NCBI GenBank assembly: GCA_963668035.1
Contig: OY764073.1
Location: 4,743,308-4,807,307 of the forward strand
From: Candidatus Poribacteria bacterium
GTDB lineage: Bacteria > Poribacteria > WGA-4E > WGA-3G
DNA length: 64,000 nucleotides
Direction of reading: 5' to 3'
Every line of letters starts with the position of its first letter. Position 1 is the first letter of the stretch. The notes below the pieces were generated by a model that saw only the letters and a list, made by a program, of their open reading frames with translations, searched no databases and was not told the origin of the DNA. The translations under genes were made by a program, and so were the position numbers. Of the stretch, positions 9,773 to 38,030 are shown piece after piece.

Positions 9773-9795
9773 AATGTCCTCCTATGGGAAACTGA

Positions 9796-24156: not shown

Positions 24157-24527
24157 TACCATTTTCATTTTCTCCGACGGGTTAGGGTCTGTTGGTTTAG
24201 GTTCGGGGTGCGACAGAATGTCGACCTTTCGTCAATTGAATAGCCCTGCTATTTTGCGTCCGTCCTATAATTGTTTTCCATCGCGTTGGAGGCGTCTATC
24301 CTACAGACGACGTAAAGTCTCCCTGAACCGGTGCGCAAAGGCACCAGTGGATGTGGGGGTTCAGTGCATCCGTATGGAGAGGCACTGAACAGTGTGGAAT
24401 GCAAGGCACAATAACGACCTTACGAATTCCCGTTTTACGAACTGGGAATGCAGACTTCGTGAAGCACGTTCGGGTTGAAAAATCCCTCTGCCACTATACG
24501 ATCCCGAGATCCTGCCGTGTCTCGGAA

Positions 24528-25125
24528 CCCTCCACGACTCAGTGAGATTTTAAACAGTCTTTTTACGTGGGCATCAAATCCGTCAGGTTGCTGTAAGACT
24601 GTTAGCACCAAACAACCTGCCCACGACTCTTTGAGATTTTGATGGAACCTTTTACAGACTACAGGAAAATCAACAGGTTGACGAGAGGGATACCTTTTTT
24701 ATTTTAAGAATAGATATCATACACCGCTTTTTCAGACGGGGTACACGATGCAAAAACTGTTCGTTGATGCAGGGTGCATGTTGATATGTATTGATTAAAA
24801 CGGTATGAGAACTTCGTTCCAGTGCAGGCAGATATGTGAACACTGCTCACTGAAAGAACCCCTGCTTTCCATTTTCCTGTAACGTAGGTGTTCGCTGATG
24901 CCATCAGTGTCAGTTCGACCTTCTGTACTCTGTGAGATTTTAGACGACATGTTCTTATGGGATAGTATCTATCGGTGGTTGTGTTGATGTCGACCAGCAA
25001 CTCCCACTCCCACGACCGTGTAGGTATTTACGCGACGTTCCTCCATGTTGGTATTTTTCCGTCTCCATTTGGTGTCGCGCGTTCCAAGGAGACTGCCCAC
25101 GGACTCTTATTTCGAGATTTCGAGC
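24528..25125. repeat. Degenerate dispersed repeat motif CCCACGACTC-n-TGAGATTTT(A/G) (4 copies) in a 1.6-kb non-coding stretch
   Basis: Copies lie at about 24531-24556, 24613-24640, 24925-24946 and 25094-25125. There is no convincing ORF between 24157 and 25800. Confidence 0.4.
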
Positions 25126-25803
25126 GACGGTTTGCGGTGTAAAAGTTGGGTTCCCGTGTTGTCGCTGCGTCAGGGAGCCGCCCGCACCTCTAAAGAGTAT
25201 CGCACCTCGCAAAAGTCGTATTGGGCGTTGCATTCTCAATCACGTGTTAATTATACGATATTTTTTGGGTGTAGGGAAATAGAAAATGCGTCAAAATATT
25301 GTGATTCTATTGTTTATCTATGTATGATTCAATTTTTGTGCATTTTTTTCGGCGGTCAGTTATCAGTAAGTTGGCTATCAGCAGAGAAAAAATATATTGT
25401 TGTCTGCGTTTCTGTGAAAGTTATGAAATTTCACAGTATTTCACAGTAAGGATTCAAAAAAGTGTTTCGGTTACGGCTACGAAGTAAGGTGTGGCAAGGG
25501 TTTTGAAGGGACTATGAACCTTATCAATTTTTTGCGTACCTGTGAAATTATGATTTTAATGTGCGGGTTGTTTTGCTGACAAACGCAGTGGCGGGACGGG
25601 TTTACGGGCGTTTCTATTTTTGACACTTAAAACGAGTTGCTGTGAAATGTTTGTTGATGTGTCTAAGGTTCTGGGATCGTTGTTTTGCGGCGCGTTGTTA
25701 TGTTGTTAGGATGTGGTGCACTGCACGTCGGATCGCTGCCAAAAACTTTACACACCCGCAGTGTTACGTTTCTTAGCCATTACGCCCCTCCCATAAGTTA
25801 GGT

Positions 25804-26523
25804 TTAAAGTGTTTCTGTCTTTAGATAGCGTTTTAGAAATTCATCCAGGTTGAAGCAACATTCTTTGTACTTCTTGCCGCTTCTGCACAGACACGAACTA
25901 TTTAGGCAGGACTTTATAGGTTCAACGTCGTTAAAGTGACATTTTTTGTATTTCTTGCCACTATCACAAGGACACAAGTCGTTTCTACCAAGGTCGTACC
26001 GCGCGTAATTGATCATTTCAGCGAGGTACTCTCTGATCCCTTCGTCACCATGTGAGTATTCTTCCCAACGATCATTGTTACTCACATCAGTACCGAATTT
26101 TTCCACGTAAGAAAGACGATAGAAAAATGGAATTACGCGTTCGTGCATAAAAGATTTAATTCTAAGAGTTTGGTTCTCAGGACGTTTTATGCCTAGACAA
26201 CAAGTATTATCCTCTGGATTGATATGCAAATCAATGATATTAACGTTGCATTTTTGGGCGATTTCACGGTGCCTTTTACCGACTTCATATACTTTTGGCC
26301 ACCCATTCATGTCCAAATCTTCTAAGCATATTTCAACCTCAAAAACATCGCGAATCAAGAAACCTATTTCATCAGCAAAATTGCCAATTATCACTTTTCT
26401 CGCCTTGTCATCGTACACAGCACAGAAGTCAAGTTCACCTATGATTTTCCGGCATTTTTCGTCATATTGCAGGTTGGGAAAATGTCTATTTAACCATTTG
26501 ATTTCATCGGTACTTATCTTCAT
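25804..26523 (-). CDS. E2 (UBC)-like protein with two C-terminal SEC-C zinc-finger motifs; candidate CBASS Cap2-short partner
   Basis: LHINPEDNTCCLGI resembles the UBC HPN...ICL catalytic motif. CPCDSGKKYKKCH and CLCRSGKKYKECC are SEC-C motifs. It lies 6 bp downstream of the SMODS cyclase gene. Confidence 0.45.
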   Translation of the reverse strand: MKISTDEIKWLNRHFPNLQYDEKCRKIIGELDFCAVYDDKARKVIIGNFADEIGFLIRDVFEVEICLEDLDMNGWPKVYEVGKRHREIAQKCNVNIIDLHINPEDNTCCLGIKRPENQTLRIKSFMHERVIPFFYRLSYVEKFGTDVSNNDRWEEYSHGDEGIREYLAEMINYARYDLGRNDLCPCDSGKKYKKCHFNDVEPIKSCLNSSCLCRSGKKYKECCFNLDEFLKRYLKTETL

Positions 26524-26529
26524 GGCACA

Positions 26530-27498
26530 TTACCTTGCGTAGAGTTTTGGAGGACTTACGATAACAGGAGCAACCCCTTTATTTCCGTTATTATCTTTAA
26601 GTTCTCCAAAATTGTCACCGAACAACTCTCTCCACTTTTTGACACTTGCATTATGTTCCTTGGCATCAAACGCTTCGTTTATCTTAGCGTTGTAAAGGTC
26701 GAACATTTCTCGAAAGTGACGATATTTGTCTTGGTCCCAGTGTCTTGTAAAACTTTCTGTGGATAAGACTGGATTGCAAATTTCCGGCATAAAGACATTA
26801 GACTGCAAAAAACTGTTTATCCTGTTTGAAACCGTTTTTAGGGACATTGGAATATCCTTAAAACCTTCGCTACCTTCATCGCTAGCATAAACACTGTTAC
26901 CAATCAGGGTGGTTAGAAGGATTGATTTTACAGAAAAGTTACCTTTGTGGTCACGGAGAAATTTTAACAACCGCGTAACCCGCTTTAGGTTTCCATTAGT
27001 CATTCTTGTTTTTTCATTGAACCAATCTCTATAGCCAGTGCCATCAGTGAGTTCAAATTCATTTTCCTTGTTATTACAGATGAAGTACTTTTCCTCTTGC
27101 GTGAGCCAATCTTGTTGGGTAATGCATGGGACAATATCTAAGTGGAAGTCACCAGCATAATCGATATAGACACATCTCGTTCTTCTATGTACCTTATCCT
27201 TATAATTGTCGTTTCCTTTCAAACAATTATAGACATCATTAATGTAATCCCTAGGTTCTTTGTCCTCATCGTACGTCATGTACAAGAGCAGATCCGCGTC
27301 ATATTCGCGCGTCCCGACTGGTTTGATAATTGTTTTCAAACCGTAAGATCCCTGTCGCTCCGTTTTTTCGTACAAATCTAAATTTCCACTGAGGAACGTA
27401 TTCACAGCCGAGGAACTATTATTCAATCTTTGAAGCCTACTCTCATTGAGGTTTACCTCTTGGGAAAGGAAGTCTTGGAAATACTTTATATGCTTCAT
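26530..27498 (-). CDS. SMODS-domain nucleotidyltransferase (second CD-NTase-like cyclase, 322 aa)
   Basis: The GS motif QGSYGLKT, the DxD motif YDADLLLYM and a third acidic residue in CVYIDYAGDFHLDIVP form a pol-beta-type NTase core typical of CBASS cyclases. Confidence 0.65.
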   Translation of the reverse strand: MKHIKYFQDFLSQEVNLNESRLQRLNNSSSAVNTFLSGNLDLYEKTERQGSYGLKTIIKPVGTREYDADLLLYMTYDEDKEPRDYINDVYNCLKGNDNYKDKVHRRTRCVYIDYAGDFHLDIVPCITQQDWLTQEEKYFICNNKENEFELTDGTGYRDWFNEKTRMTNGNLKRVTRLLKFLRDHKGNFSVKSILLTTLIGNSVYASDEGSEGFKDIPMSLKTVSNRINSFLQSNVFMPEICNPVLSTESFTRHWDQDKYRHFREMFDLYNAKINEAFDAKEHNASVKKWRELFGDNFGELKDNNGNKGVAPVIVSPPKLYAR

Positions 27499-27640
27499 TG
27501 ATTTGATTCTCCTTATCTATTAATTGAAAACTCAAAAAAGATCAATGCTGTGTGCCAATTTGCCACTTTTGGGAGGGGGCGTAAAGCCTTTGACACTAAA
27601 TTCGGCACGGCGTTTGTTTTCTAAGGCTCCTCACATAGCA

Positions 27641-27800
27641 CTCCGCTAGAGTGCAAGGAGGGTACCTGTCTTTTCTATAGACATATTGCTCCGCTGGAGC
27701 AAAGAGACCTCTTTACAGATAACGACTTCTTCACGCCAGAGGCGTGATATGTCTATAGAAATCAATATCATTCGTAGCTGCACTCCAGCGGAGCGCTATG
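27641..27800. repeat. Degenerate inverted-duplicate member of the MITE-like TCTATAGACATAT repeat family
   Basis: TCTATAGACATATTGCTCCGCTGGAGC and GTGATATGTCTATAGAAA...GCACTCCAGCGGAGCG form inverted repeats. It shares the CATAGCACTCC(GCT/TAC)GGAGTGC palindrome with the copies at 44226 and 46909. Confidence 0.55.
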
Positions 27801-27865
27801 TGTTGACGAAGGATCGATCGATGGAAACCCCTCTATAACGAGACACTGCCGAAATATTTACACCC

Positions 27866-29032
27866 TTACTTGATTTTGAGCACTGTTCTTAATCCATTCC
27901 GGTCATCATATTCACATGCGAAAATCTCGGGGTCTGATTTTGGCAGAAGAACTCGCCCACATTCAACTGCAATCGGTGCTGGAACTGCTGGGATAATGGA
28001 GATCTTGCAGGAGTCTCCATGGACAGTCTGAATTTCGTTCAGCAATTTCCTATATTCTCGACTGAATCCTTCCAACTGCTTACGAGATTTCAAAAAATAT
28101 ACAGAAGGTTCGTCAATGGTTATTTCATAAATGCTGAAATTCTCCGAAATCAACCCTTCGTATCGGGTGCTATCAATTTTGCCGCTTAGAGACAATACGA
28201 TTGCAACGTTCCCACCACTCTTGTTAATATGGAGAGGGTTCACAATATAACATGTTTCTGTACCTTTTTCTTCCTCGGGCCAGGACCAGGTATGGTTTGT
28301 GTCATCAATATTTCTGTGTGACTGGTACAAATCCGCTGGAAGAGTATCACCAATGCACTTTCCCAAGGACATTAATAGTGGCATGGGACCGATGGCGAAC
28401 ACAGAAAGATGTTTAATCTTTCCTTCATCTACTCCTTCCTCAAAGTGCCACTTGATTTTTTGCTGAATCTCGCTTGCAAAAATCTGCCAGTACTCTGAGT
28501 CTCTATGACCGTCAAAATTGTTATTAATGATGTTAATTCCTTTTTCATCAGTTGGGTATTTGGGAAACATTGCATTACGATATGTCTCGGAGTTAATCGG
28601 AACAATTCTATCGCCTATATTCACGGAGAATAATAGGACAGTAGATTTATGAATATCCTCTGGATGTCTGGTTTGAATTTCAATTCTGTCCTCATGCTTC
28701 CATTTCCACTCGCTCAACAACTCTGGTGGGTATTTATCGGGATTATCATCAATTTCCTTATGGCATCGTCGGCACAGCAGCATGAGATTAGAGAATTCAA
28801 TTTGTAGATTCGTAGACTCTTTGTTCCCTCTTGGGCCATCTTGACTCGCTGCGATAATGTGCGTTACCTCCCCAAAATTTCCATCGGTTAACGTCAGGTC
28901 ATTACGCCAAACGAGTTTGTTACAGCCGCTAAATTCACAACGTCCTGCCGACCTGCCGAATAATTTCAACTTAGTATGCAGCGGAACGTTTTTGCGCGTA
29001 ATTTTGGGTTCTGGTTTCTTATCCTTAGCCAT
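27866..29032 (-). CDS. cap5: Cap5-like CBASS effector: N-terminal HNH endonuclease fused to a C-terminal SAVED domain
   Basis: HNH motif GRCEFSGC...EVTHIIA...NLMLLCRRCHKEID is present. A ~250-aa C-terminal domain consistent with SAVED follows. The gene is immediately downstream of a CD-NTase gene. Confidence 0.65.
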   Translation of the reverse strand: MAKDKKPEPKITRKNVPLHTKLKLFGRSAGRCEFSGCNKLVWRNDLTLTDGNFGEVTHIIAASQDGPRGNKESTNLQIEFSNLMLLCRRCHKEIDDNPDKYPPELLSEWKWKHEDRIEIQTRHPEDIHKSTVLLFSVNIGDRIVPINSETYRNAMFPKYPTDEKGINIINNNFDGHRDSEYWQIFASEIQQKIKWHFEEGVDEGKIKHLSVFAIGPMPLLMSLGKCIGDTLPADLYQSHRNIDDTNHTWSWPEEEKGTETCYIVNPLHINKSGGNVAIVLSLSGKIDSTRYEGLISENFSIYEITIDEPSVYFLKSRKQLEGFSREYRKLLNEIQTVHGDSCKISIIPAVPAPIAVECGRVLLPKSDPEIFACEYDDRNGLRTVLKIK

Positions 29033-29223
29033 ATGTTCAATCTCCTTTTTTCTGTTGTGATAGGTTCAGAATTTGGTTGTTTAATACCTACTGATAATCC
29101 TTTTGAATGAAAGGCAATTCAAAAAATACTACTCTTCAAAAAAATGGCCATGGAAAACCAAAAGTTATGTGTTGCAGCAGATCCGTTAATTATCAAAGCG
29201 ATAGTCTACAAAGCGTCCCTAAA

Positions 29224-30783
29224 CTACTCGATATTTACAACGAATTCTCCACTCCGTGCACAGCATATACTGTCTTTGACAATAAAGCATTCAATCCAAT
29301 GGACACCTTTGTATCGGGTACTTTCTTTCCGTATCGCACCCTCTGTTTCAATAGTGCCTTGGTAGAAGCCTCCACGAAGCCCATTTTCTTTATATGCCTC
29401 GGGTCCAGTATTTACAACTTGCCAATGAACTTTGTAAGGTCTCGGGACATTCGTTTTTGCCTCAAACCGTAATGAACAGGACTTCGGTAATGGTGTTGAA
29501 TCACTTTTGATTTGCCATGGCCGGAATCCTTTTCGAGAAACTGTCCCTGTAATTGTTACTTGCCCATTTGGAATCACGGGCCATTTTGGTTTCTGCCGAT
29601 GAGACACATTAAAACGAGTCAATTCCCAAGAGAGGCTTGCGGCAAGCGTAGAACCATAGTGGATCTTTCCTTCAGAGAGATTTCGCATTGCTTTGTCGAC
29701 AATTTGTTCTCCCAAGTGCGGTTTTAGTGATTTCCTAACGCTCTGGATATCACTGATTTCTAACGCGTAGGTTAGATCTAACTGTGCCTGTTTAATCCAA
29801 TCCATGAAACACTCCTTTCGGATAGGATGTTCCTGCCATTTATCGGCAAAGTTCTCAAGTGGATTTACTGGATTGCGTATGAGAGTCATGCCATTATCAT
29901 CACGTTTAATATGCTTATGCATGTTACTTACGACATTTAACAGGGCTTCTTGAAGGTCGGCTTCGTTGTTGTAAGCAAGAGCGGCGAGTGTCGTAATGAT
30001 GATAGAAATCGGTTTAGCCTTTTCATCGTAATGAGATTTGTTTTCTTCAAACCAGATGTCACGGTGTCGTTTTAATATCTGAATTGTTCGCTGAAGTGGC
30101 GTTTTGATTTTATACTCCGGAACATCCTCAACTCGCAGTTGAATCGATTCAGCAAGAGACTTTCGGATCGCGTTGAATTGAATTTCCATACAATTTTTGA
30201 ACCATTCTGCATATCCCTTTGGATTACTACAAGGCCAGTCTGGATGGATTCGCATGTAATTAGGATAAGTCCTATCGGTGATGGCAATCGCGAAATCTGA
30301 CCAGTTAGACTTTGGATAACCTTTTGATTCAAGAAGTTGTCTGAATGACTCTGAGTCTGGAATCGCGGGCAAAATATCCATGTGGAATTGGACATCATCA
30401 GCGTAATGAAGCGTCCAACAACGTCGCCCTTCTTCTGCTGGCGAATTCATGTTGCGCGCGTTAGCATAAAGCTTGATTTCCTCACCAACTAAATTCTTTA
30501 GATATGCTTGGCTAATTGTGTTTTTCTGAAGACTCAACTCGCTGACAAGGTCTATGTCATACTCCTCGGCATCGGAAATAGGTTTAGTGACCGTACCAAG
30601 TAGGAACGAACCTTGGGGATAAACTTCGGGATTGTCCTGAACAACTCCAGATTTATCCCGTTCAAGCCAATCACCGATAGATTTATAGCGTTCTACGGCA
30701 CGTTCGTAATAACTTGTAGGGATATCCAATGCATCAGATATAGCTTCAAGCAGTGGACTGAACTGTTCTGAATAAATGTGCAT
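29224..30783 (-). CDS. cGAS/DncV-like nucleotidyltransferase (CD-NTase, 519 aa)
   Basis: PQGSFLLGT is the GS motif, EEYDIDLV the DxD motif and a later DVQFHMDILPA supplies the third Asp. The gene lies between capV and cap5. Confidence 0.65.
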   Translation of the reverse strand: MHIYSEQFSPLLEAISDALDIPTSYYERAVERYKSIGDWLERDKSGVVQDNPEVYPQGSFLLGTVTKPISDAEEYDIDLVSELSLQKNTISQAYLKNLVGEEIKLYANARNMNSPAEEGRRCWTLHYADDVQFHMDILPAIPDSESFRQLLESKGYPKSNWSDFAIAITDRTYPNYMRIHPDWPCSNPKGYAEWFKNCMEIQFNAIRKSLAESIQLRVEDVPEYKIKTPLQRTIQILKRHRDIWFEENKSHYDEKAKPISIIITTLAALAYNNEADLQEALLNVVSNMHKHIKRDDNGMTLIRNPVNPLENFADKWQEHPIRKECFMDWIKQAQLDLTYALEISDIQSVRKSLKPHLGEQIVDKAMRNLSEGKIHYGSTLAASLSWELTRFNVSHRQKPKWPVIPNGQVTITGTVSRKGFRPWQIKSDSTPLPKSCSLRFEAKTNVPRPYKVHWQVVNTGPEAYKENGLRGGFYQGTIETEGAIRKESTRYKGVHWIECFIVKDSICCARSGEFVVNIE

Positions 30784-30799
30784 ATTTCAAAATTCCTTC

Positions 30800-31735
30800 T
30801 TATTTATGGAAAGCATTGAAGGGTTCAGTGGGATTACGCAAAAAAACCTCGCGGAGTTTAGGCAACGCGTGCCGAGCTTGAAACGTCCCAAGACCTTTCA
30901 AGGAGTCAATTTCTTCTATTCCGTCCAAACTAAATTTCCCTTTGGACACATCTTCGTCAATTCTGATGATGTTATCGTGTCCTGCAAGAAGTTGTGCTGT
31001 TCCGAGAGACGCACTAGATTGTGCATGCATAAATACATCAAGAAGCTTAAATGCCCAATATGATTTACCGAGCGGACTTTTTCGTCCTCTGTTAACGTTC
31101 AATGGCTCAGTGGTACAACCTAAACTTAAGACCTTTAGAGAATCCCTCGGCCAGTCAAGCACCGTAATTGCCTCAACAACAGACATTCCAACAGGGTTAT
31201 TTGCCCATACACCGCCATCTATCAAAGGAGTTCCAACAGGAGAACGATGAGTGGGAAAGTAAGTTGGAGCGGCAGTGGCTGCTAGAGCTACATCAACTAC
31301 TTTTTCCTTGTAGTCTGTTTCTAATCGTGGATGATGGGCAGTTTTGTATATGCGAACTTTGCCGTTCTCAAGATTTAACGACGGAACAACGAGCCGATTC
31401 CTACTATCGCCCAGTTTCTTATCACCGAAACAGGTTTCTAATGCTTCCTTAAGCGGAGCACTACTATACTTAGTAGTCCCAGGCCACCTGAATTGACGGA
31501 TCCCACGGTTTCCACCAAAGATGACAGGGCCAAACTCCTCGTAAAAATTTAATAATTCCTTTGCAGACAACCCTAGACCTAGACCAAGGGCAATAATTCC
31601 ACCTGTTGAGGTGCCAACGATTAGGTCGAAATAATTCGCTACATTGTCCCCAATAGTATCTTCAACAGTAGCGAGAAAAGATGCGGGACACACGCCCTTA
31701 ATTCCACCACCGTCAATTGTTAGAATCCGTTTCAT
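30800..31735 (-). CDS. capV: Patatin-like phospholipase (CapV-like CBASS effector)
   Basis: DGGGIKG oxyanion motif, GTSTGG serine-hydrolase motif and DGGVWANNP (Asp of the dyad) are present. It sits 16 bp upstream of the CD-NTase gene, as in capV-dncV. Confidence 0.8.
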   Translation of the reverse strand: MKRILTIDGGGIKGVCPASFLATVEDTIGDNVANYFDLIVGTSTGGIIALGLGLGLSAKELLNFYEEFGPVIFGGNRGIRQFRWPGTTKYSSAPLKEALETCFGDKKLGDSRNRLVVPSLNLENGKVRIYKTAHHPRLETDYKEKVVDVALAATAAPTYFPTHRSPVGTPLIDGGVWANNPVGMSVVEAITVLDWPRDSLKVLSLGCTTEPLNVNRGRKSPLGKSYWAFKLLDVFMHAQSSASLGTAQLLAGHDNIIRIDEDVSKGKFSLDGIEEIDSLKGLGTFQARHALPKLREVFLRNPTEPFNAFHK

Positions 31736-31884
31736 CAGTTTACCTCCATTTACAGAGAGGTCATTTGGAAAAAACTAATTGATTTTCTTGCGATTTCATT
31801 AATTTTTGGAATCTTTAGTCAAGTGTCACAAGAGCCGGATATGGTCCCGCTCTTCCAACGACGAAAACCAACTGGCTCTGATTG

Positions 31885-32193
31885 TTAAGGTTTCCTTGGT
31901 TTTGTGACAACCAATTCAAATTCTCTATTCTCTCGTTGAGCGGCACTACGTCTGAACGTGGAATGCTGCTCTTGATGAGCATCAACAGTACTGGGAGTTT
32001 CAACCTCAACAATCTTGGTTCGATTCCTTCGTGTTGCCAGAATGTCAGGAATTCTTCCATTGTTACCGATTGGATCCGGCTGATCGAAATTCGGTAGATC
32101 AGCCTGAACTTTCCACCCTTTTTCTTTAAGCTCTTTTGCAAGAGTCCGAACTCTATTATCATGGGTGGATTGGTTTCTACTTTGCCTCCTCAT
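31885..32193 (-). CDS. Small PD-(D/E)xK (Hjc/restriction-endonuclease-like fold) protein leading the CBASS operon
   Basis: ELKEKGWKV...RIPDILA...KIVEVET matches the Hjc-like motif order (PDI..A ... hEVE). The overlapping ORF 31815..32162 on the same strand looks non-protein-like. Confidence 0.35.
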   Translation of the reverse strand: MRRQSRNQSTHDNRVRTLAKELKEKGWKVQADLPNFDQPDPIGNNGRIPDILATRRNRTKIVEVETPSTVDAHQEQHSTFRRSAAQRENREFELVVTKPRKP

Positions 32194-32254
32194 TGCAAAT
32201 CCTCCTATTTGTAGGGTAAGATATATGTGTATATAATACCATTAATAAATTCAT

Positions 32255-32281
32255 GTGTCAAGGAAAATTTAAAATTTGACA
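32255..32281. promoter_or_regulatory. Palindromic candidate operator GTGTCAA-N13-TTGACAC in the AT-rich divergent promoter region
   Basis: A perfect 7-bp inverted repeat lies in the ~310-bp, very AT-rich gap between the CBASS operon start (32193, minus) and the HTH-peptidase regulator start (32507, plus). Confidence 0.4.
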
Positions 32282-32506
32282 CTTTTTAATTGGAAAATTA
32301 TTACTCTTATATTTTTGTATTATATTTTAATTTTAATATATATTTTAATTTTTATTTAAACAATTATAATATATATTAAAAAATATGTCAAAAAATTAGG
32401 TGAATTCCCTAAAAAAAACCGATGTGTTTTTTGTCTTTACTTAAAAGTGTGTTTTCTGATATATTATATTTGCATGTATATTATCATTTGGGAGGAAGTA
32501 ACTGTC

Positions 32507-33745
32507 ATGAAATTAGGAGAGCGTCTTCGTCTCATTCGTAAAGAGAAAAAGTTGACCCTGAAAGATTTGGGTGAACTCGCGGATCTATCCGTGCCTTATC
32601 TTTCAGGTATGGAGCGTGGTGTTGTTAACCCTTCTGTAGAAACCCTACACAAAGTTGCCAAAGCTTATAATATGACAGTCCAAGACCTTTTTAGTGGTGT
32701 GGAAGAATTAGGGGAATCGACACATACTACGTATCCTACAGGATTTGAATCCTTTCTAAGGGACTTCGAGTCTAGTTATGAGATTATTAGTGATGACTGG
32801 AAAGAATTACTGCTAAAAATCAACTTTCGCGGCAGGCGGCCGTCCTCTCAAACGGAATGGCTTGAATTATATCTTTCTCTCAGACGAATTCTTTCACCCA
32901 AGGAGGAAAAGGTGAACGATCCGAAAAAGCATGTTATCAAATTGGTTCAGGATACTGTGAAAGAATATAGTTCAACTCAGTTGCCTAATTTTGGCGAAAT
33001 ATGCACTGGCTTGGGGTTAGATGTACAAGAAGTCTCGTTACCAGACGGGATAGACGGGATGCATAGAGGAAGAATAATTTTTATTAATTCCCAGATTCAG
33101 AATGAAGAGCGTAAGCGATTTACCCAATTTCATGAAGTCACACATTATTTGATTGAGAAGGATGGAGATATAATCTCTGATCTTCACGATACTACTTGGA
33201 ACCAGGATGATGGATACGAAAGGCAATTAGAACAGTTTTGCAATATTGGTGCGGCTGAGTTTTTGATGCCTAGGAAAATATTCGCGGGACTCTATAAAGA
33301 AAGGGAGTTTAATATTGAACTGATACCATATGCTGCGCGTTACTTTGGGAGTTCGACAACAGCGACAACTATACAACTTGCTCAAGTTGCCCCAAATTCG
33401 TGCATTACTGCTGTTTGTGAATTAATAGATAGTGATGCAGAATCGTCGCAAACTCGTCTTTCTGGCGCAAAGGATAACTCCACCAAGCAAAAATTGCATG
33501 TAACCTATTCTGCCTCGGCCCCCTCAACTAAATATTTGTTAGCAAAATACACAGAGATTCCTGGGGACCATCTGATCAATCAAGCATTTTCGCAAAGCCA
33601 ATCGGTTGGAGGGGAGAGTTACGTCCCCTTTCGAAGCGGTAAGAAAATGCCTTGCTATTGTGAAGCTTTGGCAGATGGTGATAGGGTTTATGTATTATTT
33701 CATTTGACACCCCCACCGGACCCTAACCAAATGTCATTGTTGTGA
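32507..33745 (+). CDS. Fused XRE-family HTH plus ImmA/IrrE (M78) zinc metallopeptidase regulator (CapH-CapP-like)
   Basis: ATG 32507 follows GGGAGGAAG. The N-terminal HTH is LTLKDLGELADLSVPYLSGMERG. The central HEVTHY (HExxH) lies in an ImmA/IrrE-like context. It is divergent from the CBASS operon. Confidence 0.7.
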   Translation: MKLGERLRLIRKEKKLTLKDLGELADLSVPYLSGMERGVVNPSVETLHKVAKAYNMTVQDLFSGVEELGESTHTTYPTGFESFLRDFESSYEIISDDWKELLLKINFRGRRPSSQTEWLELYLSLRRILSPKEEKVNDPKKHVIKLVQDTVKEYSSTQLPNFGEICTGLGLDVQEVSLPDGIDGMHRGRIIFINSQIQNEERKRFTQFHEVTHYLIEKDGDIISDLHDTTWNQDDGYERQLEQFCNIGAAEFLMPRKIFAGLYKEREFNIELIPYAARYFGSSTTATTIQLAQVAPNSCITAVCELIDSDAESSQTRLSGAKDNSTKQKLHVTYSASAPSTKYLLAKYTEIPGDHLINQAFSQSQSVGGESYVPFRSGKKMPCYCEALADGDRVYVLFHLTPPPDPNQMSLL

Positions 33746-33792: not shown

Positions 33793-36750
33793 TTAATCAA
33801 CATACCAACTCGGAAAAGGGGTACCCTTCAGTTTAAGCTTCGCCAACTCCGCGTCAAGATCACACTTAGACTTCTTCCCGCCGTGGATACTTGGTTCAGC
33901 ACAGAGCATCTCGCGTAGCGTTTGCATTGACTCCAAAACGTTAGCACTCGTAATTCCTAACACCTTAGTTAACAGACCGCGATCCAATTCTTTGCGTACA
34001 GGGTCGTGGTTACATTCGTTAAGAGGCAACATCCGCTTATATTTTAAGCGTTCAAAGAGTGCCTCAGCGTTTGCTAACGCTGCATCCGAAAGTTCACGCA
34101 CATCCAGTGTCGGCAGACTACTTAAGGTTTTTAACCTCAATTTCCCGCGTCCAGCAGTCTGTTTGCCGCTGTGCAACCAGTGGCAGAAGAGTCCTAAGGT
34201 TGAATTGCACCACAGGGTCCATGGAATTTCATGCCGTGGATTTTCAAAAGCCACGTTCGTTATTAGGGTTGGACCGATAGCAGGTTTCTCAGTGAAAAGA
34301 GCCATTATTGAACAAGCGGTGAATCGCGGCACCATGTTGTAATGTGCTTTGCTATTTCGATCCATTCGCTTTTGCACCGCGATTTCGGCTTTGGGAAGGG
34401 GAATCGCGCGTGAATCTGGGAGGACGAGCATTGAGCGTTGGACTTCACTGTTTGCATTCCAGATACAAGGATACCCGTCGCTGTCAGGTTTATATCCGTT
34501 CTCTTTACGAAAGACACCTCTCACCTCAGCGAGGCCCAAAGTCGCAATATCTCCCACACGACAGATAGGAATTTTAATAATCGTTTCTTGTCGTTTTTGC
34601 ATCGGTAATTCTAATCTACCCCTTTTCAGGCGTTGTGCAGATTGGAGGAGTGCCATTGACTTGACGCGCGTTGCAACCCAGCCTTCATCTGCCGGTAATG
34701 GGCAATCGAGTGTATGTCCGAGGGTCTCCTCGCCGATCTTCATCGCATCGCCGCCGCTGGGAGTATCTTCTAACCGGTACGCCCCATTACTTCGGATGAT
34801 TCGGTTTGTAATCTCAAAAGCCTCAAGTAGACTCTGTGGACGTTGATTTAGACAGACAAATTTGCCACGCCCTGTGCTATCGCCTTTCCCCTTTGTTGCT
34901 ACAATGATACACTCCGCCATGTCCGTATCGGCAGAAAAAGCACAGTCAGTACCTTTTGCTTCAGCGATAGTTATGACAACTACATCGTGATATTCTGTTG
35001 CCCATAGATCACGGACCTTTTGCGAAGTCGGTGAGGCGAGTACCGTAGCAGGTAATATAAAACCCATCGTTCCGTTTCGTTTAAGCATCCTATCCGCTAA
35101 TTCTATAAAGTATGCGCTCAGACCTGCTTGTCCATCGGCAACCTGTGTTTTTTTCTTCCTGAGTATTGTTTGCATGATTTTTGTATATTCTTGAGGTCGG
35201 TCGCTGCCTTGAAAGGGGGATTTCGCGCCATCTATACCAGCAGGGTATGCGCCTGGTTTCGTAAAAGGAGGATTTTGAATAACGACATCAAATTTTCCGT
35301 ACGGAAAAGCGCGTTGAAGGTCAACTATCCTGTTTTCTTCGCCGCCGATCTGTTCAGCATCCGTATCAAATAACTTTATATCATCAAGCAATTCAAGTGA
35401 ACCAACTGCGTAATCACCGTTGTCTAATTTACCATAAGGTGCGGTGAGAATACGTGTTCCTCCCAATTTCATATCGGCATACCTACTTGCTAGGGCAGCA
35501 GCCGTTAGGTGTGTGGCATTCGGCATAACATCTGCACCAGCGATGTTTTCCTCAAGCATCTTTTGATGGATATCCCTACCGTTTCCGCCTCGCTGTTCGT
35601 ATAGGGTTAAAATACGTTGATATACACCATTGAGAAGCGCGCCTGTTCCACAAGCAAAATCCGCCACTTTCGGAAGCTTGCCTTTCGGCAGTTCAGGCAT
35701 CACGAGGGTTGATAACAACACCGCGCTCTCTGGTAGCGTATAGTTCGCCTTGAGGTATTTCCTATCGGTGATCAATTTTTGAAAGACTATGCCCGCGAGT
35801 TCATGGATTTGCGCGATGCCGGTGTCAACGAGGTCTTTTGCAGCTTCACACAGGAGCATTAAGATAGGCTTAACCAGTCTATCGTCGGTAGCCAGTGCTT
35901 CAACGAGATTAAGAGCATCTCCAAAGATCGGACGATAGTTGACCTTGAGAATCGTATTCCAGTCCGCGATAACATCCGCGTAATCAATTGTAGGTAGGAG
36001 TTGGCGGAGTGAACGGACCGATCCCATCTCCACTTTACCGGCGAGAGAACTCTGAAATACAAAGGCATCGGTGATAATTAGGGCTGCCATGCGGAGGGTT
36101 TGGATGTTCAGTTTTTCTGCTGTATCGCCATCTTTTTTAGAGAAAACCTCTTGCTGCAGAATTGTCTCAATTTTCGTACCAACGGCACGGTGTTCAGTGA
36201 TAGCGTTTTCAAGTAAGTAGGCTGCCTTGTTGACACTTTTTTCCATCTCTTCTGCTGCCTGTTCCAATTGCGCGTTTGGCATTGCGCCGACGTAGAGTGG
36301 ATTGGCGATGTCTTCTACCGTGCCAGTTGCCCATCCATTTTTTGGAAAGTGTCCGATGATGTCTCCGAAGGTACTAATGAGTTTATATTGTAGGTCATCT
36401 GCGGTGTTTAGTTGTGGTGTAATATCTTTTCCGCGCAGTGTTTTAAAACGGTCAGGATATAGAATCGCCATAACATTGTCGAGGGTTTTCGCGGCGGTAA
36501 AGTACTCCGCTTCCAATTCGTAAACAAGTCTTGATTCTGCTTGTTCGATGAGTTTTTTGGCATTGGTAGCAGTAGCGAATTTAGCCTCAATCCCGATGGG
36601 TTCTCTACCTCGCTCGATCACAAGCGCGTCAAGTTCGCTGTTGCCTTTGATGAAGGCATGGATAGCCGTTTCGACTTCCCAGTCGTGGCGCATGTTTCGT
36701 AGGATATTCACCAAGTGATTTGTAATTGTGGTTTCGTGTTGACTCGGCAT
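33793..36750 (-). CDS. Type IIG/IIL-like restriction-modification fusion enzyme (N-terminal PD-ExK-like nuclease region, gamma-class N6-adenine methyltransferase, C-terminal TRD)
   Basis: SAM motif I VADFACGTGALLNG precedes motif IV VIQNPPF. The N-terminal DALVIERGREPIGIEAK is a putative D...ExK. It is a 985-aa single polypeptide. Confidence 0.65.
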   Translation of the reverse strand: MPSQHETTITNHLVNILRNMRHDWEVETAIHAFIKGNSELDALVIERGREPIGIEAKFATATNAKKLIEQAESRLVYELEAEYFTAAKTLDNVMAILYPDRFKTLRGKDITPQLNTADDLQYKLISTFGDIIGHFPKNGWATGTVEDIANPLYVGAMPNAQLEQAAEEMEKSVNKAAYLLENAITEHRAVGTKIETILQQEVFSKKDGDTAEKLNIQTLRMAALIITDAFVFQSSLAGKVEMGSVRSLRQLLPTIDYADVIADWNTILKVNYRPIFGDALNLVEALATDDRLVKPILMLLCEAAKDLVDTGIAQIHELAGIVFQKLITDRKYLKANYTLPESAVLLSTLVMPELPKGKLPKVADFACGTGALLNGVYQRILTLYEQRGGNGRDIHQKMLEENIAGADVMPNATHLTAAALASRYADMKLGGTRILTAPYGKLDNGDYAVGSLELLDDIKLFDTDAEQIGGEENRIVDLQRAFPYGKFDVVIQNPPFTKPGAYPAGIDGAKSPFQGSDRPQEYTKIMQTILRKKKTQVADGQAGLSAYFIELADRMLKRNGTMGFILPATVLASPTSQKVRDLWATEYHDVVVITIAEAKGTDCAFSADTDMAECIIVATKGKGDSTGRGKFVCLNQRPQSLLEAFEITNRIIRSNGAYRLEDTPSGGDAMKIGEETLGHTLDCPLPADEGWVATRVKSMALLQSAQRLKRGRLELPMQKRQETIIKIPICRVGDIATLGLAEVRGVFRKENGYKPDSDGYPCIWNANSEVQRSMLVLPDSRAIPLPKAEIAVQKRMDRNSKAHYNMVPRFTACSIMALFTEKPAIGPTLITNVAFENPRHEIPWTLWCNSTLGLFCHWLHSGKQTAGRGKLRLKTLSSLPTLDVRELSDAALANAEALFERLKYKRMLPLNECNHDPVRKELDRGLLTKVLGITSANVLESMQTLREMLCAEPSIHGGKKSKCDLDAELAKLKLKGTPFPSWYVD

Positions 36751-37190: not shown

Positions 37191-38030
37191 CTATACCGAA
37201 TAGAATGCCGAGGCGTTTTCGTAAAAGAGCCTGTTTTTCTCCGCATCCGATACCTCTTCAATAGCCCATGAGAGTGCGTCTACCCACTCCTGATATGTAG
37301 CCGCCAGCGTGCAGACGGGCCAATCACTCCCAAACATCAGTCGCTCATAACCGAATGATTCCACGAGGTGTCGGATGTACGGTTTGAGCTCCTCGCGCGT
37401 CCAATTCTCGCTTGCAGTCGTTACGATTCCCGATACCTTGCAGTGGACGTTCTCAAAAGCGGCGAGTTCACGGATATGGGTCGCCCACGGCTCAAATTGC
37501 CTGCCTTTTATATCGGGTCCCCCGCAGTGATTGAGTGCGTGCCGTACATCCGGTGTCGCTTTGACGAGTGCGATCGCCGCGGGCAGCTGCGCTTGGTTTG
37601 CACACAATTCAAATGAGAGATCAAACTTCGTCAGCAATTTCACACCCTTAATCAGTTCAGGACTCGCGTAGAACTGCGGATCGGGATGATGCCACGCCAT
37701 CCGGCGTACGCCCACGACGAGTCCGAATCCGACGAGCTGCGCAAGGATCGTCTCGGCGTTCGGTTTTTCCAACGGTGCTGCTGCCGCGATCGCGCCAATC
37801 ATGCCATCTGTCTCGGCGATCTGCGTTAACCACGCGACCTCTTTGACGACCTCTGTTTCAGCGGGGTCACCTTCAACGTGGACAGACTTGACGACGTTAA
37901 GGTCGCCAATTGCTTCGCGATAGTCTTGCGCTGTATACTGCTTCCTCAGTAGGTCAAATCCGTCTAACCAAGGGTATTCCAAATTAGTGGTATCCCAGAG
38001 GTGTTGGTGTGTATCAATTATTTTAAGCAT
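37191..38030 (-). CDS. Amidohydrolase-2 family metal-dependent hydrolase (TIM barrel)
   Basis: The N-terminal IDTHQHLWD metal-binding motif is present. Length is 279 aa. Confidence 0.65.
   Translation of the reverse strand: MLKIIDTHQHLWDTTNLEYPWLDGFDLLRKQYTAQDYREAIGDLNVVKSVHVEGDPAETEVVKEVAWLTQIAETDGMIGAIAAAAPLEKPNAETILAQLVGFGLVVGVRRMAWHHPDPQFYASPELIKGVKLLTKFDLSFELCANQAQLPAAIALVKATPDVRHALNHCGGPDIKGRQFEPWATHIRELAAFENVHCKVSGIVTTASENWTREELKPYIRHLVESFGYERLMFGSDWPVCTLAATYQEWVDALSWAIEEVSDAEKNRLFYENASAFYSV

What the first reader, a model, noticed from the sequence alone, without database searches (positions are those of the whole stretch)
25804..33745. Composite CBASS locus with two cyclases and two different effectors plus an E2-like gene
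Read 5' to 3' on the minus strand the operon is: Hjc-like small nuclease, patatin CapV, 519-aa CD-NTase, Cap5 (HNH-SAVED), a MITE-like repeat, 322-aa SMODS cyclase, then an E2-like/SEC-C protein. Single CBASS operons normally have one cyclase and one effector. Here a phospholipase and a DNase-SAVED effector flank one cyclase. A second cyclase with an E2-only partner (type II-short-like) follows without its own obvious effector. This may be a fused dual-effector system, two stacked systems, or cross-talk between cyclases. The region is visibly AT-richer than its surroundings.
Basis: partly seen in the sequence, partly recalled or inferred. Interest (0 to 1): 0.85.

Follow-up and report, generated by a model that had tools for sequence, protein, structure and literature searches.

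The report
Two CBASS systems sharing one operon
A Poribacteria chromosome carries one damage-regulated operon that merges two anti-phage cyclic-nucleotide (CBASS) systems: two signal-making cyclases, a membrane-destroying lipase and a DNA-cutting nuclease. Related genomes suggest that the lipase is shared between the two cyclases, which is unusual but built entirely from known parts.

Summary
On the minus strand lie a Hjc-fold small protein, patatin CapV, a 519-aa clade-G cyclase fused to AGS-C, Cap5 (HNH-SAVED), a 172-bp palindromic MITE-like repeat, a 322-aa cyclase and an E2/SEC-C protein. The region is the lowest-GC stretch of the window.

The host is Candidatus Poribacteria. The locus sits in a chromosomal hotspot between an amidohydrolase gene and a SPOR gene. 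That hotspot holds at least 11 permutations of the same modules in related genomes.

The window's exact gene order recurs in two other lineages, L118/L119 and L125. Each pairing also occurs alone:
- CapV + Cyc1-AGS-C (L124)
- Cyc1 + E2 + Cap5 (L005)
- CapV + Cyc2 + E2 (L032)
- Cyc1 + Cap5 + Cyc2 + E2 with no lipase (L029, L113)

Sequence remnants show that the ancestor had two CapV copies, one in front of each cyclase. Descendants kept one or the other.

Best reading: two stacked CBASS systems that now share a single CapV and one promoter. Signal cross-talk is likely but unproven.

All parts belong to known families, so this is a new variant of a known kind, of moderate interest.

The parts
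32507..33745 (+). CapH-CapP fusion regulator: N-terminal XRE-type HTH plus M78/ImmA-type Zn peptidase, with HEVTH at residue 209 of the 412-aa form. The mechanical ORF starts at GTG 32447. ATG 32507 (MKLGERL...) matches the 412-414-aa genes called in related loci.
   Evidence: Pfam HTH_3 4.8e-13 and Peptidase_M78 2.9e-15; PADLOC capP 6e-25 and capH 1.4e-8. It lies divergently upstream of the operon in every related locus. HExxH position and start codon.
32194..32506 (.). Divergent control region with two sigma-70-like promoters pointing at the operon. P1 is TTGACA-17-TATAAT at 32391..32363. P2 is TTGACA-17-TG-n-TATTAT at 32261..32233. An AT-rich palindrome at 32331-32381 is a candidate CapH operator.
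   Evidence: Promoter scan and inverted repeats I2/I4. P2 and the P1 region are conserved in all six aligned loci. Function as promoter or operator is inferred.
31885..32193 (-). Small (102 aa) PD-(D/E)xK / Hjc-fold protein, the first gene of the operon. It belongs with the CapH-CapP module rather than with CBASS.
30800..31735 (-). CapV, a patatin-like phospholipase effector (GTS43TGG nucleophile, D173GG). It is the only intact CapV in the locus.
   Evidence: Pfam Patatin 1.8e-26; PADLOC phospholipase effector 4e-100; NCBIfam CBASS_lipase 262.8 against cut-off 200. Catalytic residues are invariant. dN/dS 0.03-0.12.
29224..30783 (-). Cyc1L, a clade-G CD-NTase (CdnG) fused to a C-terminal AGS-C Ig-like domain. 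Active site: G58 S59, D76, D78, D136.
   Evidence: PDB best hit VcCdnG 9woo, 1.8e-78 over residues 9-351; SmCdnG 2e-30; BdCdnG 4e-14. PDB identities taken from PMC12804361, PMC12948482 and PMC10442399. Pfam AGS_C 3.3e-32. PADLOC PDLC00770 full length.
27866..29032 (-). Cap5, an HNH endonuclease (H58, N82, H91) fused to a SAVED cyclic-nucleotide sensor.
   Evidence: Pfam SAVED 2e-38 and HNH 4e-4; PADLOC endonuclease effector 7e-118. PDB Cap5 structures 8ysq 4e-59 and 7rwk 3e-40. Catalytic residues are invariant in 22 homologues. It lies directly downstream of a Cyc1-family cyclase (after the E2 where one is present) in about 20 of the fetched loci that carry a Cyc1-family cyclase.
27632..27803 (.). 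Palindromic MITE/REP-like element, a head-to-head dimer of an ~85-nt unit. It occupies the place where related loci carry a CapV gene or a CapV remnant.
   Evidence: Inverted repeats I1 and I6. RNA fold -87.3 kcal/mol, z -7.6. Unit copies at 44291 and 46974 in the window and in L009, L029 and L030. The same insertion lies at the same junction in L029, visibly near-identical in the alignment.
27499..27631 (-). Native leader of the Cyc2 gene, including the RBS. It is partly homologous to the spacer that follows CapV in loci where CapV sits directly upstream of Cyc2.
   Evidence: Alignments A3 and A6. blastn homology to L001 starts 22 nt upstream of the ATG.
26530..27498 (-). Cyc2, a short CD-NTase of a different family, clade unresolved (B/H-like). 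Active site: G50 S51, D67, D69, D121. The conserved C-terminal tail P-K-L-Y-A-R is the presumed E2 conjugation site.
   Evidence: Pfam SMODS 1e-30; PADLOC PDLC00793/00787. The family profile hits BcCdnD 4e-23, BfCdnB 2.5e-16 and EcCdnC 5e-13, with no close clade representative. Active-site residues are invariant. The K-x-Y-A-R tail is shared by the E2-linked cyclases of both families that keep their own stop codon. dN/dS 0.05-0.17.
25804..26523 (-). E2-only Cap2-like protein (H100, C108-C109 in an HxNPxDxxCCLG motif) with two C-terminal SEC-C zinc knuckles. It starts 6 nt after Cyc2.
   Evidence: PADLOC E2 PDLC00872 1.9e-26; Pfam SEC-C 2.3e-12, two stretches. His and Cys-Cys are invariant in 12 homologues. 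The first knuckle is present in all of them, the second only in the Cyc2-linked type.

Best explanation
The locus is one DNA-damage-regulated defence operon in a Candidatus Poribacteria chromosomal hotspot. It was made by stacking two CBASS systems that now share parts.

System A is CapV + a clade-G cyclase fused to an AGS-C sensor domain + Cap5 (HNH-SAVED DNase). System B is an E2-type ('type II short') CBASS: CapV + a short cyclase with a K-x-Y-A-R tail + an E2/SEC-C enzyme.

The ancestor of the composite loci carried a CapV in front of each cyclase. In this window, as in L118/L119 and L125, the copy in front of Cyc2 was lost and here a MITE sits in its place. In L123 the front copy was lost instead.

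Proposed working:
1. The CapH-CapP fusion represses two conserved promoters. DNA damage or ssDNA triggers self-cleavage and the whole operon is transcribed. No minus-strand terminator-like site was found.
2. Cyc1L is switched on through its AGS-C domain or an activation loop and makes a cyclic dinucleotide, most likely 3'2'-cGAMP as in VcCdnG and AsCdnG. That nucleotide oligomerises Cap5 to degrade DNA.
3. Cyc2 is primed by E2, which is expected to trim Arg322 and conjugate Ala321. Its product activates the one remaining CapV to destroy the membrane.
4. Because either CapV copy could be lost, and because the same CapV orthogroup serves Cyc1L alone (L124) or Cyc2-E2 alone (L032), CapV probably responds to both cyclases. 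That would make a two-sensor, two-effector network.

Shown: gene identities, intact catalytic residues, purifying selection, recurrence of this gene order, stand-alone occurrence of the sub-modules, and the CapV remnants.
Inferred: single transcript, regulator mechanism, nucleotide products, E2 chemistry, and effector sharing.
For: Gene identities.

Host and hotspot: the flanks (amidohydrolase 37191-38030, SPOR 21967-24156) are shared with L029, L110, L113, L114, L116-L119 and L123.

The same gene order as the window occurs in L118/L119 (CapV 88%, Cyc1L 94%, Cap5 79%, Cyc2 89%, E2 84% aa identity) and in the more diverged L125 (71/71/80/87/76%).

Stand-alone modules in long contigs:
- L124: CapH,CapP | CapV-Cyc1L only
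- L005: CapHP | Cyc1s-E2-Cap5 only
- L032: CapHP | CapV-Cyc2-E2 only

Two cyclases with Cap5 as the sole effector: L029 and L113.

The CapV-stop/RBS/Cyc1-ATG junction is homologous in the window, L118 (z 75) and L124 (z 40). It survives as a remnant in L123 (z 22.5), L003 (13.7), L004 (5.9) and L110 (5.1).

Middle CapV copy: intact in L123, L001 and L031; a pseudogene fragment with an in-frame stop abutting Cyc2 in L118/L119; an apparent 3' end (read by eye, not scored) in the L125 gap; a MITE in the window and L029.

CapVs of composite loci form one 85-99% clade whatever their position.

dN/dS is 0.03-0.32 for all four gene families tested, including the lipase-less pair L029-L113 (Cyc2 0.09 at dS 0.85).

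The K-x-Y-A-R tail is found only on E2-linked cyclases, and Cyc1L has AGS-C instead.

Promoters are conserved and no minus-strand terminator-like site was found.

Literature:
- CdnG-Cap5 uses 3'2'-cGAMP (PMC8568899, PMC12804361).
- E2-CBASS mechanism (10.1101/2022.05.25.493364, PMC12948482).
- CapH/CapP, including 15 fusions (10.1101/2022.04.27.489752).
- AGS-C is confined to type I CBASS (10.1101/2023.05.21.541620).
Against: - No nucleotide product or effector specificity can be read from sequence.
- The two cyclases are 23% identical and Cyc2 is not near any characterised clade representative, so a common messenger is not predicted by homology.
- Characterised VcCap5 was not activated by 3'3'-cGAMP (PMC12804361).
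- CapVs paired with different cyclases are only 72-77% identical and could differ in ligand specificity.
- The loci are mosaics. Window versus L029 has Cap5 dS 0.07 but Cyc2 dS 0.76. Lipase-less states may therefore be recent, and intactness of Cyc2-E2 there may not reflect selection in that state.
- The cyclase tail has Ala-Arg, not the conserved Gly described for E2-CBASS.
- The E2 fold could not be confirmed structurally.
- Single-transcript status across the -87 kcal/mol hairpin is untested.
Confidence: 0.6

Rival explanations
1. Two fully independent CBASS systems that are merely interleaved. Cyc1L signals only to Cap5 and Cyc2(+E2) signals only to CapV. Gene order is irrelevant because the messengers diffuse. 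There is no cross-talk.
For: The closest stand-alone relatives give clean modules: Cyc1s-E2-Cap5 (L005) and CapV-Cyc2-E2 (L032, L002/L003). CapVs of at least 61% identity sit next to Cyc2-type cyclases in L031/62, L032, L035 and L036. CdnG-Cap5 is a characterised cognate pair (PMC8568899, PMC12804361). The cyclases are 23% identical.
Against: The CapV-Cyc1 junction is old and native. It occurs stand-alone in L124 and as remnants in L123, L003, L004 and L110, so Cyc1 has had CapV as an effector. L029 and L113 keep intact Cyc2-E2 with no CapV.
Confidence: 0.17
2. A dual-effector type I system (CapV-Cyc1L-Cap5) plus an orphaned remnant. After its own CapV decayed, Cyc2-E2 has no effector and is on its way to being lost, or it relies on an effector encoded elsewhere in the genome.
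For: CapV is 16 nt from Cyc1L (3 nt in L118), joined by a junction shared with the stand-alone L124. The CapV next to Cyc2 is visibly decayed in L118/L119 and L125. In L117 an IS insertion has already removed Cap5, Cyc2 and E2 while CapV-Cyc1L survives.
Against: Cyc2 and E2 are full length with invariant catalytic residues in the window, L118/119, L125, L029 and L113. dN/dS is 0.05-0.25. Three diverged lineages keep the pair after losing the adjacent CapV. The retained front CapV is 85-91% identical to CapVs that sit next to Cyc2.
Confidence: 0.15
3. The island is a decaying, non-functional patchwork of horizontally acquired fragments, with MITE and IS activity and low GC.
For: Low GC, a MITE in the operon, IS insertions and truncated genes in sister loci L001, L117 and L123, and a 1.65-kb ORF-poor stretch downstream.
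Against: All seven genes in the window are full length compared with their homologues. Catalytic motifs are intact and there is strong purifying selection. Promoters are conserved.
Confidence: 0.03

Closest known systems
CdnG-Cap5 CBASS (Asticcacaulis sp., Lactococcus lactis, Vibrio cholerae; PMC8568899, PMC12804361)
   Same: A clade-G CD-NTase (Cyc1 matches VcCdnG at 1.8e-78) lies immediately upstream of an HNH-SAVED Cap5 with intact H-N-H residues. The expected logic is 3'2'-cGAMP, then Cap5 tetramer, then DNA degradation.
   Different: Here the cyclase carries a C-terminal AGS-C domain. A patatin CapV is translationally close upstream, and a second cyclase-E2 pair follows in the same operon.
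E2-CBASS / type II short (Serratia marcescens SmCdnG-E2; 10.1101/2022.05.25.493364, PMC12948482)
   Same: An E2-only protein lies directly downstream of the cyclase with no E1 or JAB. It has conserved His and Cys-Cys in a UBC-like HxN...C motif. The cyclase has a conserved C-terminal tail with one residue after the presumed attachment residue. Cyclase::E2 fusions exist in sister loci, as already noted in the literature.
   Different: The cyclase is short (322 aa against 407) and not clade G. The tail ends Ala-Arg instead of Gly-X. The E2 carries one or two SEC-C zinc knuckles. The effector is a patatin rather than 2TM-SAVED, and in this window it is not adjacent.
Type I CBASS with CD-NTase-AGS-C fusions (10.1101/2023.05.21.541620)
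   Same: AGS-C is fused to the cyclase and there is no Cap2/Cap3 partner for that cyclase. The paper notes that clade G has branches with and without AGS-C.
   Different: In these Poribacteria the same cyclase family alternates between AGS-C and tail+E2. So does the Cyc2 family (L035, L036). This AGS-C system is embedded in a composite operon with a type II-short system.
CapH/CapP regulators of CBASS (E. coli MS115-1; 10.1101/2022.04.27.489752)
   Same: An HTH repressor plus an M78 Zn-peptidase (HExxH) is encoded divergently upstream of the immune operon. Fused forms are documented (15 systems).
   Different: It is fused here and split in some sister loci (L003, L113, L124). It is consistently followed by a small Hjc-fold gene that is not described as part of CapH/CapP modules in the CapH/CapP preprint passages I searched.
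Myxococcus xanthus DdvS/DdvA defence island with two CBASS and a type III-B CRISPR-Cas (PMC11506125)
   Same: Two CBASS of different types are under one regulator. The type II member is described with cyclase, E1/E2 and JAB but no effector of its own.
   Different: That island uses an ECF sigma/anti-sigma regulator and several promoters, and its systems are not interleaved. No sharing of effectors has been shown there either.
Vibrio cholerae CapV-DncV-Cap2-Cap3 (type II CBASS; own knowledge, and as summarised in PMC12804361)
   Same: A patatin CapV is encoded directly upstream of its cyclase. CapV passes the NCBIfam equivalog for the cGAMP-activated lipase.
   Different: The cyclases here are not clade A. 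The partner is E2-only, not E1-E2 plus JAB.

Membership tests
CBASS (general) | CD-NTase with the G-S ... D-x-D ... D active site | tested here: met
   Cyc1: G58 S59, D76, D78, D136 (sequence). Cyc2: G50 S51, D67, D69, D121, invariant in 9 homologues. Pfam and PADLOC hits.
CBASS (general) | Adjacent effector that carries or is a cyclic-nucleotide-activated killing domain | tested here: met
   Cap5 SAVED 2e-38 plus HNH. CapV NCBIfam CBASS_lipase 262.8 against cut-off 200.
CBASS (general) | Confers phage resistance through cyclic-nucleotide signalling | not testable with these tools
   Needs reconstitution and plaque assays.
Clade G CD-NTase (CdnG) | Closest sequence relatives are characterised clade-G enzymes | tested here: met
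   VcCdnG 9woo 1.8e-78 over residues 9-351; SmCdnG 2e-30; BdCdnG 4e-14; no other clade matched. PDB identities.
Clade G CD-NTase (CdnG) | Product is 3'2'-cGAMP | not testable with these tools
   Inferred only from homology to VcCdnG and AsCdnG.
Type I CBASS with AGS-C fusion | AGS-C domain fused to the cyclase C-terminus, and no Cap2/Cap3/HORMA partner for that cyclase | tested here: met
   Pfam AGS_C 3.3e-32 at residues 392-519. In all 13 AGS-C-bearing Cyc1 genes seen, no E2 follows the cyclase directly. A stand-alone two-gene form occurs in L124.
E2-CBASS (type II short) | E2-only ancillary gene next to the cyclase, no E1 or JAB | tested here: met
   PADLOC E2 1.9e-26, 6 nt downstream of Cyc2. 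No E1 or JAB hit in the locus.
E2-CBASS (type II short) | Catalytic cysteine (and His) of the E2 | tested here: met
   H100 and C108-C109 are invariant in 12 homologues. Yan et al. report two conserved cysteines in E2 orthologues.
E2-CBASS (type II short) | Conserved C-terminal glycine on the cyclase as the attachment residue | tested here: not met
   The tail is K-x-Y-A-R: penultimate Ala, terminal Arg. It is conserved in the E2-linked cyclases of both families here that keep their own stop codon. It is analogous in position to G406-E407 of SmCdnG.
E2-CBASS (type II short) | UBC/E2 fold of the ancillary protein | tested here: inconclusive
   The PDB profile search hit only SEC-C peptides. The AF2 model from a 3-sequence alignment had pLDDT 53 and was unusable.
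Cap5 | N-terminal HNH nuclease with H-N-H residues plus C-terminal SAVED | tested here: met
   H58, N82 and H91 are invariant.
CapV | Patatin fold with a GxSxG nucleophile and a DGG Asp, encoded in a CBASS operon | tested here: met
   G41-T-S43-T-G45 and D173-G-G are invariant. NCBIfam equivalog above cut-off.
CapH/CapP regulator | HTH repressor plus M78 metallopeptidase (HExxH), divergently upstream of the immune operon | tested here: met
   HEVTH at residue 209. Divergent position in all loci. Fusions are documented.
CapH/CapP regulator | ssDNA/DNA-damage-stimulated cleavage of the HTH part that de-represses the operon | not testable with these tools
   Inferred from Lau et al. (10.1101/2022.04.27.489752).
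MITE / REP-like dispersed repeat | Terminal inverted repeats, small size, no coding capacity, multiple genomic copies | tested here: met
   Target-site duplication could not be determined because no empty site with the same flanks was found.
Hjc / AHJR-like PD-(D/E)xK nuclease | Restriction-endonuclease-like fold | tested here: met
Hjc / AHJR-like PD-(D/E)xK nuclease | Pfam gathering score, and the canonical E...D...E-x-K catalytic set | tested here: not met
   25.5 bits against the 26.1 cut-off. The conserved residues are D32, P49-D50 and E63-V-E65-T66, with no Lys in the third motif. Nuclease activity is therefore uncertain.

The most novel reading that the evidence does not exclude
Two cyclases of different CD-NTase families have different activation logic: an AGS-C sensor domain on one, E2-mediated conjugation through an Ala-Arg tail on the other. 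They converge on a common or cross-activating cyclic nucleotide. Together they drive two effectors, a phospholipase and a DNase, from a single CapH-CapP-controlled operon. This would be a natural OR-gate, two-input/two-output CBASS network. Its existence is betrayed by reciprocal loss of duplicate CapV genes and by lipase-less loci in which both cyclases have only Cap5.
Probability: 0.4. Interest if true: 0.75.

Novelty: new variant of a known kind. Interest (0 to 1): 0.55.

Why it matters
CBASS is usually treated as one cyclase paired with one cognate effector. This hotspot is a natural experiment. The same two cyclases and two effectors appear in every pairwise combination, and duplicate lipase genes are lost reciprocally. 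That makes effector sharing between unrelated cyclases directly testable with four proteins.

It also shows AGS-C and tail+E2 as interchangeable regulatory modules on two cyclase families. It shows an Ala-Arg rather than a Gly conjugation tail. And it shows a small Hjc-fold gene that travels with CapH-CapP regulators. Each of these is a concrete lead on how CBASS is switched on.

If there is no cross-talk, the locus is simply two known systems in one operon.

Tried and rejected
- Source contig. Cyc1 has a 100% identical database entry (P0121, on a 5.24-Mb contig), but it could not be retrieved. Host assignment therefore rests on homologues.
- Rfam scan of 24-38 kb found no RNA family.
- My first reading, was 'Cap5 belongs to Cyc1, CapV belongs to Cyc2, clean nesting'. 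I abandoned it once CapV 3' remnants upstream of Cyc1 and the stand-alone CapV-Cyc1L locus L124 appeared.
- 'CapV moved by a simple local duplication' was rejected as the sole explanation. The CapV-Cyc1 junction is homologous to that of the stand-alone L124. Gene conversion between two copies fits better.
- Cyc2 clade. Single-sequence and profile searches against PDB gave scattered hits (CdnD-like, CdnB, CdnC, N-terminus of CdnG), so the clade is left unresolved.
- E2 fold. The PDB profile search hits only SEC-C peptides and the AF2 model had pLDDT 53.
- Patatin homologues of 50-56% identity from soil metagenomes (L037-L065) have no recognisable cyclase neighbour and were set aside as non-CBASS.
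- p284 (an HExxH protein downstream of E2 in L029) has no remnant in the window.
- Nothing recognisable was found in window 24157-25803.
- Millman et al. 2020 is not held in the library, so statements about how common multi-effector operons are rest on my own recollection.

Full report
**1. What is in the window**

- 31885-32193 (102 aa): AHJR-like, 25.5 bits, just under Pfam's 26.1 cut-off.
- 30800-31735 (311 aa): patatin CapV. NCBIfam 'CBASS cGAMP-activated phospholipase' scores 262.8 against a cut-off of 200.
- 29224-30783 (519 aa): DncV-like NTase plus AGS_C, 3.3e-32.
- 27866-29032 (388 aa): HNH plus SAVED, i.e. Cap5.
- 26530-27498 (322 aa): SMODS cyclase.
- 25804-26523 (239 aa): PADLOC E2, 1.9e-26, with two SEC-C motifs.

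The two cyclases are 23% identical. The region has GC 0.406 against 0.482 elsewhere and is the second-lowest of 281 equal-sized windows.

It is an XRE-HTH + M78 peptidase fusion that matches PADLOC capP (6e-25) and capH (1e-8). Its likely true start is ATG 32507, giving 412 aa with HEVTH at residue 209. Such CapH-CapP fusions are documented in 15 systems (10.1101/2022.04.27.489752).

**2. The repeat**

The 367-nt Cap5-Cyc2 gap contains a 172-bp nested palindrome at about 27632-27803. It folds at -87 kcal/mol, z = -7.6. Its ~85-nt half-unit recurs in intergenic DNA at 44.29 and 46.97 kb and in other Poribacteria loci. 'MITE-like' is therefore a fair description. The hairpin has no U-tract, and no minus-strand terminator-like site was found anywhere in 25-34 kb.

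**3. Identity of the parts**

Cyc1 is a clade-G enzyme. Its best solved relatives are VcCdnG (9woo, 1.8e-78 over residues 9-351), SmCdnG and BdCdnG (identities of the PDB entries from PMC12804361, PMC12948482 and PMC10442399). CdnG enzymes make 3'2'-cGAMP, which activates Cap5 (PMC8568899, PMC12804361).

AGS-C fusions are known only from type I CBASS. They are near-universal in clades B and H and patchy in F and G (10.1101/2023.05.21.541620).

Cyc2 has no close solved relative. A family profile hits BcCdnD, BfCdnB and EcCdnC at 1e-13 to 1e-23. Its AGS-C-fused cousins (L035, L036; PADLOC PDLC00793 full length) suggest clade B or H, but I leave the clade unresolved.

Catalytic residues are intact and invariant in all five enzymes.

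**4. Host and hotspot**

Homologues of Cap5, Cyc1 and the small gene are overwhelmingly from Candidatus Poribacteria MAGs. The window's flanks are an amidohydrolase (37191-38030) and a SPOR protein (21967-24156). The same flanks bracket the equivalent locus in L029, L110, L113, L114, L116-L119 and L123. This is a chromosomal defence hotspot with changing cargo. In L116 the cargo is AbiTii/CoiA_nuc rather than CBASS.

**5. Catalogue of architectures**

The catalogue comes from tblastn and HMM scans of 125 fetched loci.

- (a) CapHP | Cyc1short-E2-Cap5: L004, L005.
- (b) CapHP | (small gene) | Cyc1L-Cap5: L006, L114. Their contigs end soon after Cap5.
- (c) CapH,CapP | CapV-Cyc1L and nothing else: L124, on a 9.7-Mb contig.
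- (d) CapHP | CapV-Cyc2-E2 and nothing else: L032.
- (e) CapHP | Cyc1L-Cap5-Cyc2-E2 with no lipase: L029, L113.
- (f) Cyc1short-E2-Cap5-CapV-Cyc2-E2: L001, L031/L062.
- (g) small gene | Cyc1L-Cap5-CapV-Cyc2-E2: L123.
- (h) The window's order, small gene | CapV-Cyc1L-Cap5-gap-Cyc2-E2: L118/L119 (79-94% aa identity) and L125 (71-87%). L117, L120 and L121 are truncated versions.
- (i) Two separately regulated operons: L002/L003.
- (j, k) Further variants with a third cyclase: L028, L110-112.

The window's arrangement is therefore real, recurrent and kept across substantial divergence. It is assembled from units that also live alone.

**6. Remnants reveal the history**

The last ~70 nt of CapV, the RBS and the Cyc1 start form a junction that is homologous in the window, L118 (z 75) and the stand-alone L124 (z 40). 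The junction survives as a CapV-less remnant directly upstream of Cyc1 in L123 (z 22.5), L003 (13.7), L004 (5.9) and L110 (5.1).

Conversely, L123, L001 and L031 have an intact CapV between Cap5 and Cyc2. At that same position:
- L118/L119 carry a 56-codon CapV fragment with an in-frame stop abutting the Cyc2 ATG.
- L125 carries what looks by eye like a CapV 3' end, '...FEPFHK*'; I did not score it against shuffles.
- The window and L029 carry the MITE, at visibly near-identical sequence in the alignment.

The simplest history is an ancestor with two CapV genes, one ahead of each cyclase, followed by reciprocal loss.

CapVs of composite loci form one 85-99% clade regardless of position. The stand-alone L124 and L032 CapVs are each 73-77% identical to them. 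The front copies have an L124-type 3' end but an L001-type body, which points to gene conversion between the two copies.

**7. Selection**

Pairwise dN/dS is 0.05-0.17 for Cyc2, 0.10-0.25 for E2, 0.03-0.12 for CapV and 0.13-0.32 for Cap5. This includes the lipase-less pair L029-L113 (Cyc2 0.09 at dS 0.85).

The loci are mosaics, however. Window versus L029 has Cap5 dS 0.07 but Cyc2 dS 0.76. The time spent in any given architecture is therefore uncertain.

**8. Regulatory modules on the cyclases**

Every E2-linked cyclase that keeps its own stop codon, in both families, ends K-x-Y-A-R. AGS-C forms end ...GEFVVNIE and never have an E2 of their own.

In Serratia E2-CBASS, E2 removes the last residue and conjugates the penultimate Gly (10.1101/2022.05.25.493364). 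Here the equivalent positions are Ala321 and Arg322. That fails the 'conserved Gly' criterion but fits the same logic.

In L002/L003 and L110-112 the stop codon is lost and the cyclase is fused in frame to E2. Such fusions are already noted in the literature (PMC12948482).

All E2s here carry one SEC-C knuckle. The Cyc2-linked type carries two.

**9. Regulation**

Two sigma-70-like promoters face the operon: 32391..32363, a perfect consensus, and 32261..32233, with an extended -10. Both are conserved in six aligned loci. AT-rich palindromes lie between them.

The small Hjc-fold gene always comes first after CapH/CapP, even with non-CBASS cargo (L116, L122). I therefore assign it to the regulator module.

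**10. Interpretation**

In origin this is two stacked CBASS systems: a clade-G/AGS-C type I system with two effectors, and an E2-type system with its own CapV. What makes it more than a juxtaposition is the following.

- Exactly one CapV is retained in every composite locus seen, at either position.
- The same CapV orthogroup is the sole effector of Cyc1L in L124 and of Cyc2-E2 in L032.
- Two loci run both cyclases with Cap5 alone.

All four cyclase-effector pairings thus occur in nature. This argues for signal compatibility, but it is not proof. Effector specificity can drift at 72-77% identity, the cyclases are unrelated at the clade level, and characterised Cap5 is selective for 3'2'-cGAMP.

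I put about 0.6 on 'stacked systems now sharing CapV, with partial cross-talk'. I put about 0.17 on strict independence with CapV serving Cyc2, about 0.15 on CapV-Cyc1L-Cap5 plus an orphaned Cyc2-E2, and about 0.03 on a dead relic.

A precedent for two co-regulated CBASS, one without an effector of its own, exists in Myxococcus xanthus (PMC11506125).

**11. Verdict**

The locus is a new variant of known kinds: every protein family is already described. Interest is moderate (0.55), because the natural permutations turn 'do different CBASS cyclases share effectors?' into a four-protein experiment.

Noticed in passing
window 26530-26550 (C-terminus of Cyc2); L001, L003-L005, L029, L031, L032, L113: All E2-linked cyclases that keep their own stop codon, in two families only 23% identical, end in K-x-Y-A-R. 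The AGS-C forms do not. This looks like an Ala-Arg version of the Gly-X conjugation tail of E2-CBASS.
   Followed up: partly
L002/L003 7960-9822; L110 9001-10917 (P0156, P0225): The Cyc1-short cyclase is fused in frame to its E2 (620-638 aa) through loss of the stop codon after '...YA'. E2 would then have to self-process the fusion.
   Followed up: partly
L035 5278-6627; L036 6448-7773: The Cyc2 family also exists fused to AGS-C, next to a CapV of 61-65% identity. Both cyclase families therefore alternate between AGS-C and tail+E2, as if these were interchangeable regulatory modules.
   Followed up: partly
window 31885-32193; L116 10001-10309; L122 8001-8309: The 102-aa Hjc-fold gene follows CapH/CapP regulators even when the cargo is AbiTii/CoiA_nuc (L116), or when no CBASS is present next to a type I R-M system (L122). 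It lacks the catalytic Lys (E-V-E-T). Its role in the regulator module is unknown.
   Followed up: partly
window 33793-36750 (minus strand): A 985-aa Eco57I-like N6-adenine methyltransferase, possibly type IIG or MADS/BREX-like, lies between the amidohydrolase and the regulator. It is present in L001, L005, L029, L110, L114 and L123 but absent in L116-L119. It is therefore another variable cargo of the same hotspot.
   Followed up: no
window 24157-25803: A 1.65-kb stretch between the E2 gene and the SPOR gene has only short ORFs, with no Pfam, Rfam or locus homology apart from a 44-nt match to L029. Sister loci have a 276-284-aa gene or IS elements here.
   Followed up: partly
L029 12890-13744; L116 11485-12324: A conserved 279-284-aa protein with an HEFCH (HExxH) motif and no Pfam, PADLOC or PHROG hit follows E2 in L029. 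In L116 it sits between AbiTii and CoiA_nuc. It may be an uncharacterised defence-associated metalloprotease.
   Followed up: partly
window 44291-44305 and 46974-46988: Two further copies of the ~85-nt repeat unit (ACATAGCACTCC..GGAGTGC ... TTTCTATAGACATATCACCCC..GGGGTG) lie in intergenic DNA upstream of plus-strand genes. This is a genome-wide small dispersed repeat of this Poribacteria lineage.
   Followed up: partly
L001 7516-8622; L117 12478-14105; L123 12937-13767: IS elements (IS3-like, rve, IS630) interrupt or truncate CBASS genes in sister loci. Cyc1short is split in L001. Cap5, Cyc2 and E2 are lost in L117. This shows ongoing erosion of the hotspot.
   Followed up: no
L110 12896-14827; L123 14022-15560: A third module, an unannotated 206-aa protein followed by a 412-428-aa Cyc1-like cyclase, follows the CBASS genes in some loci. 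The 206-aa protein may be an unrecognised effector.
   Followed up: no
L007-L015, L019, L021 (about 9000-11160): Poribacteria Cap5 homologues of 61-66% identity are preceded by cyclases that match neither the Cyc1 nor the Cyc2 model. Cap5, like CapV, is therefore combined with several cyclase families.
   Followed up: no
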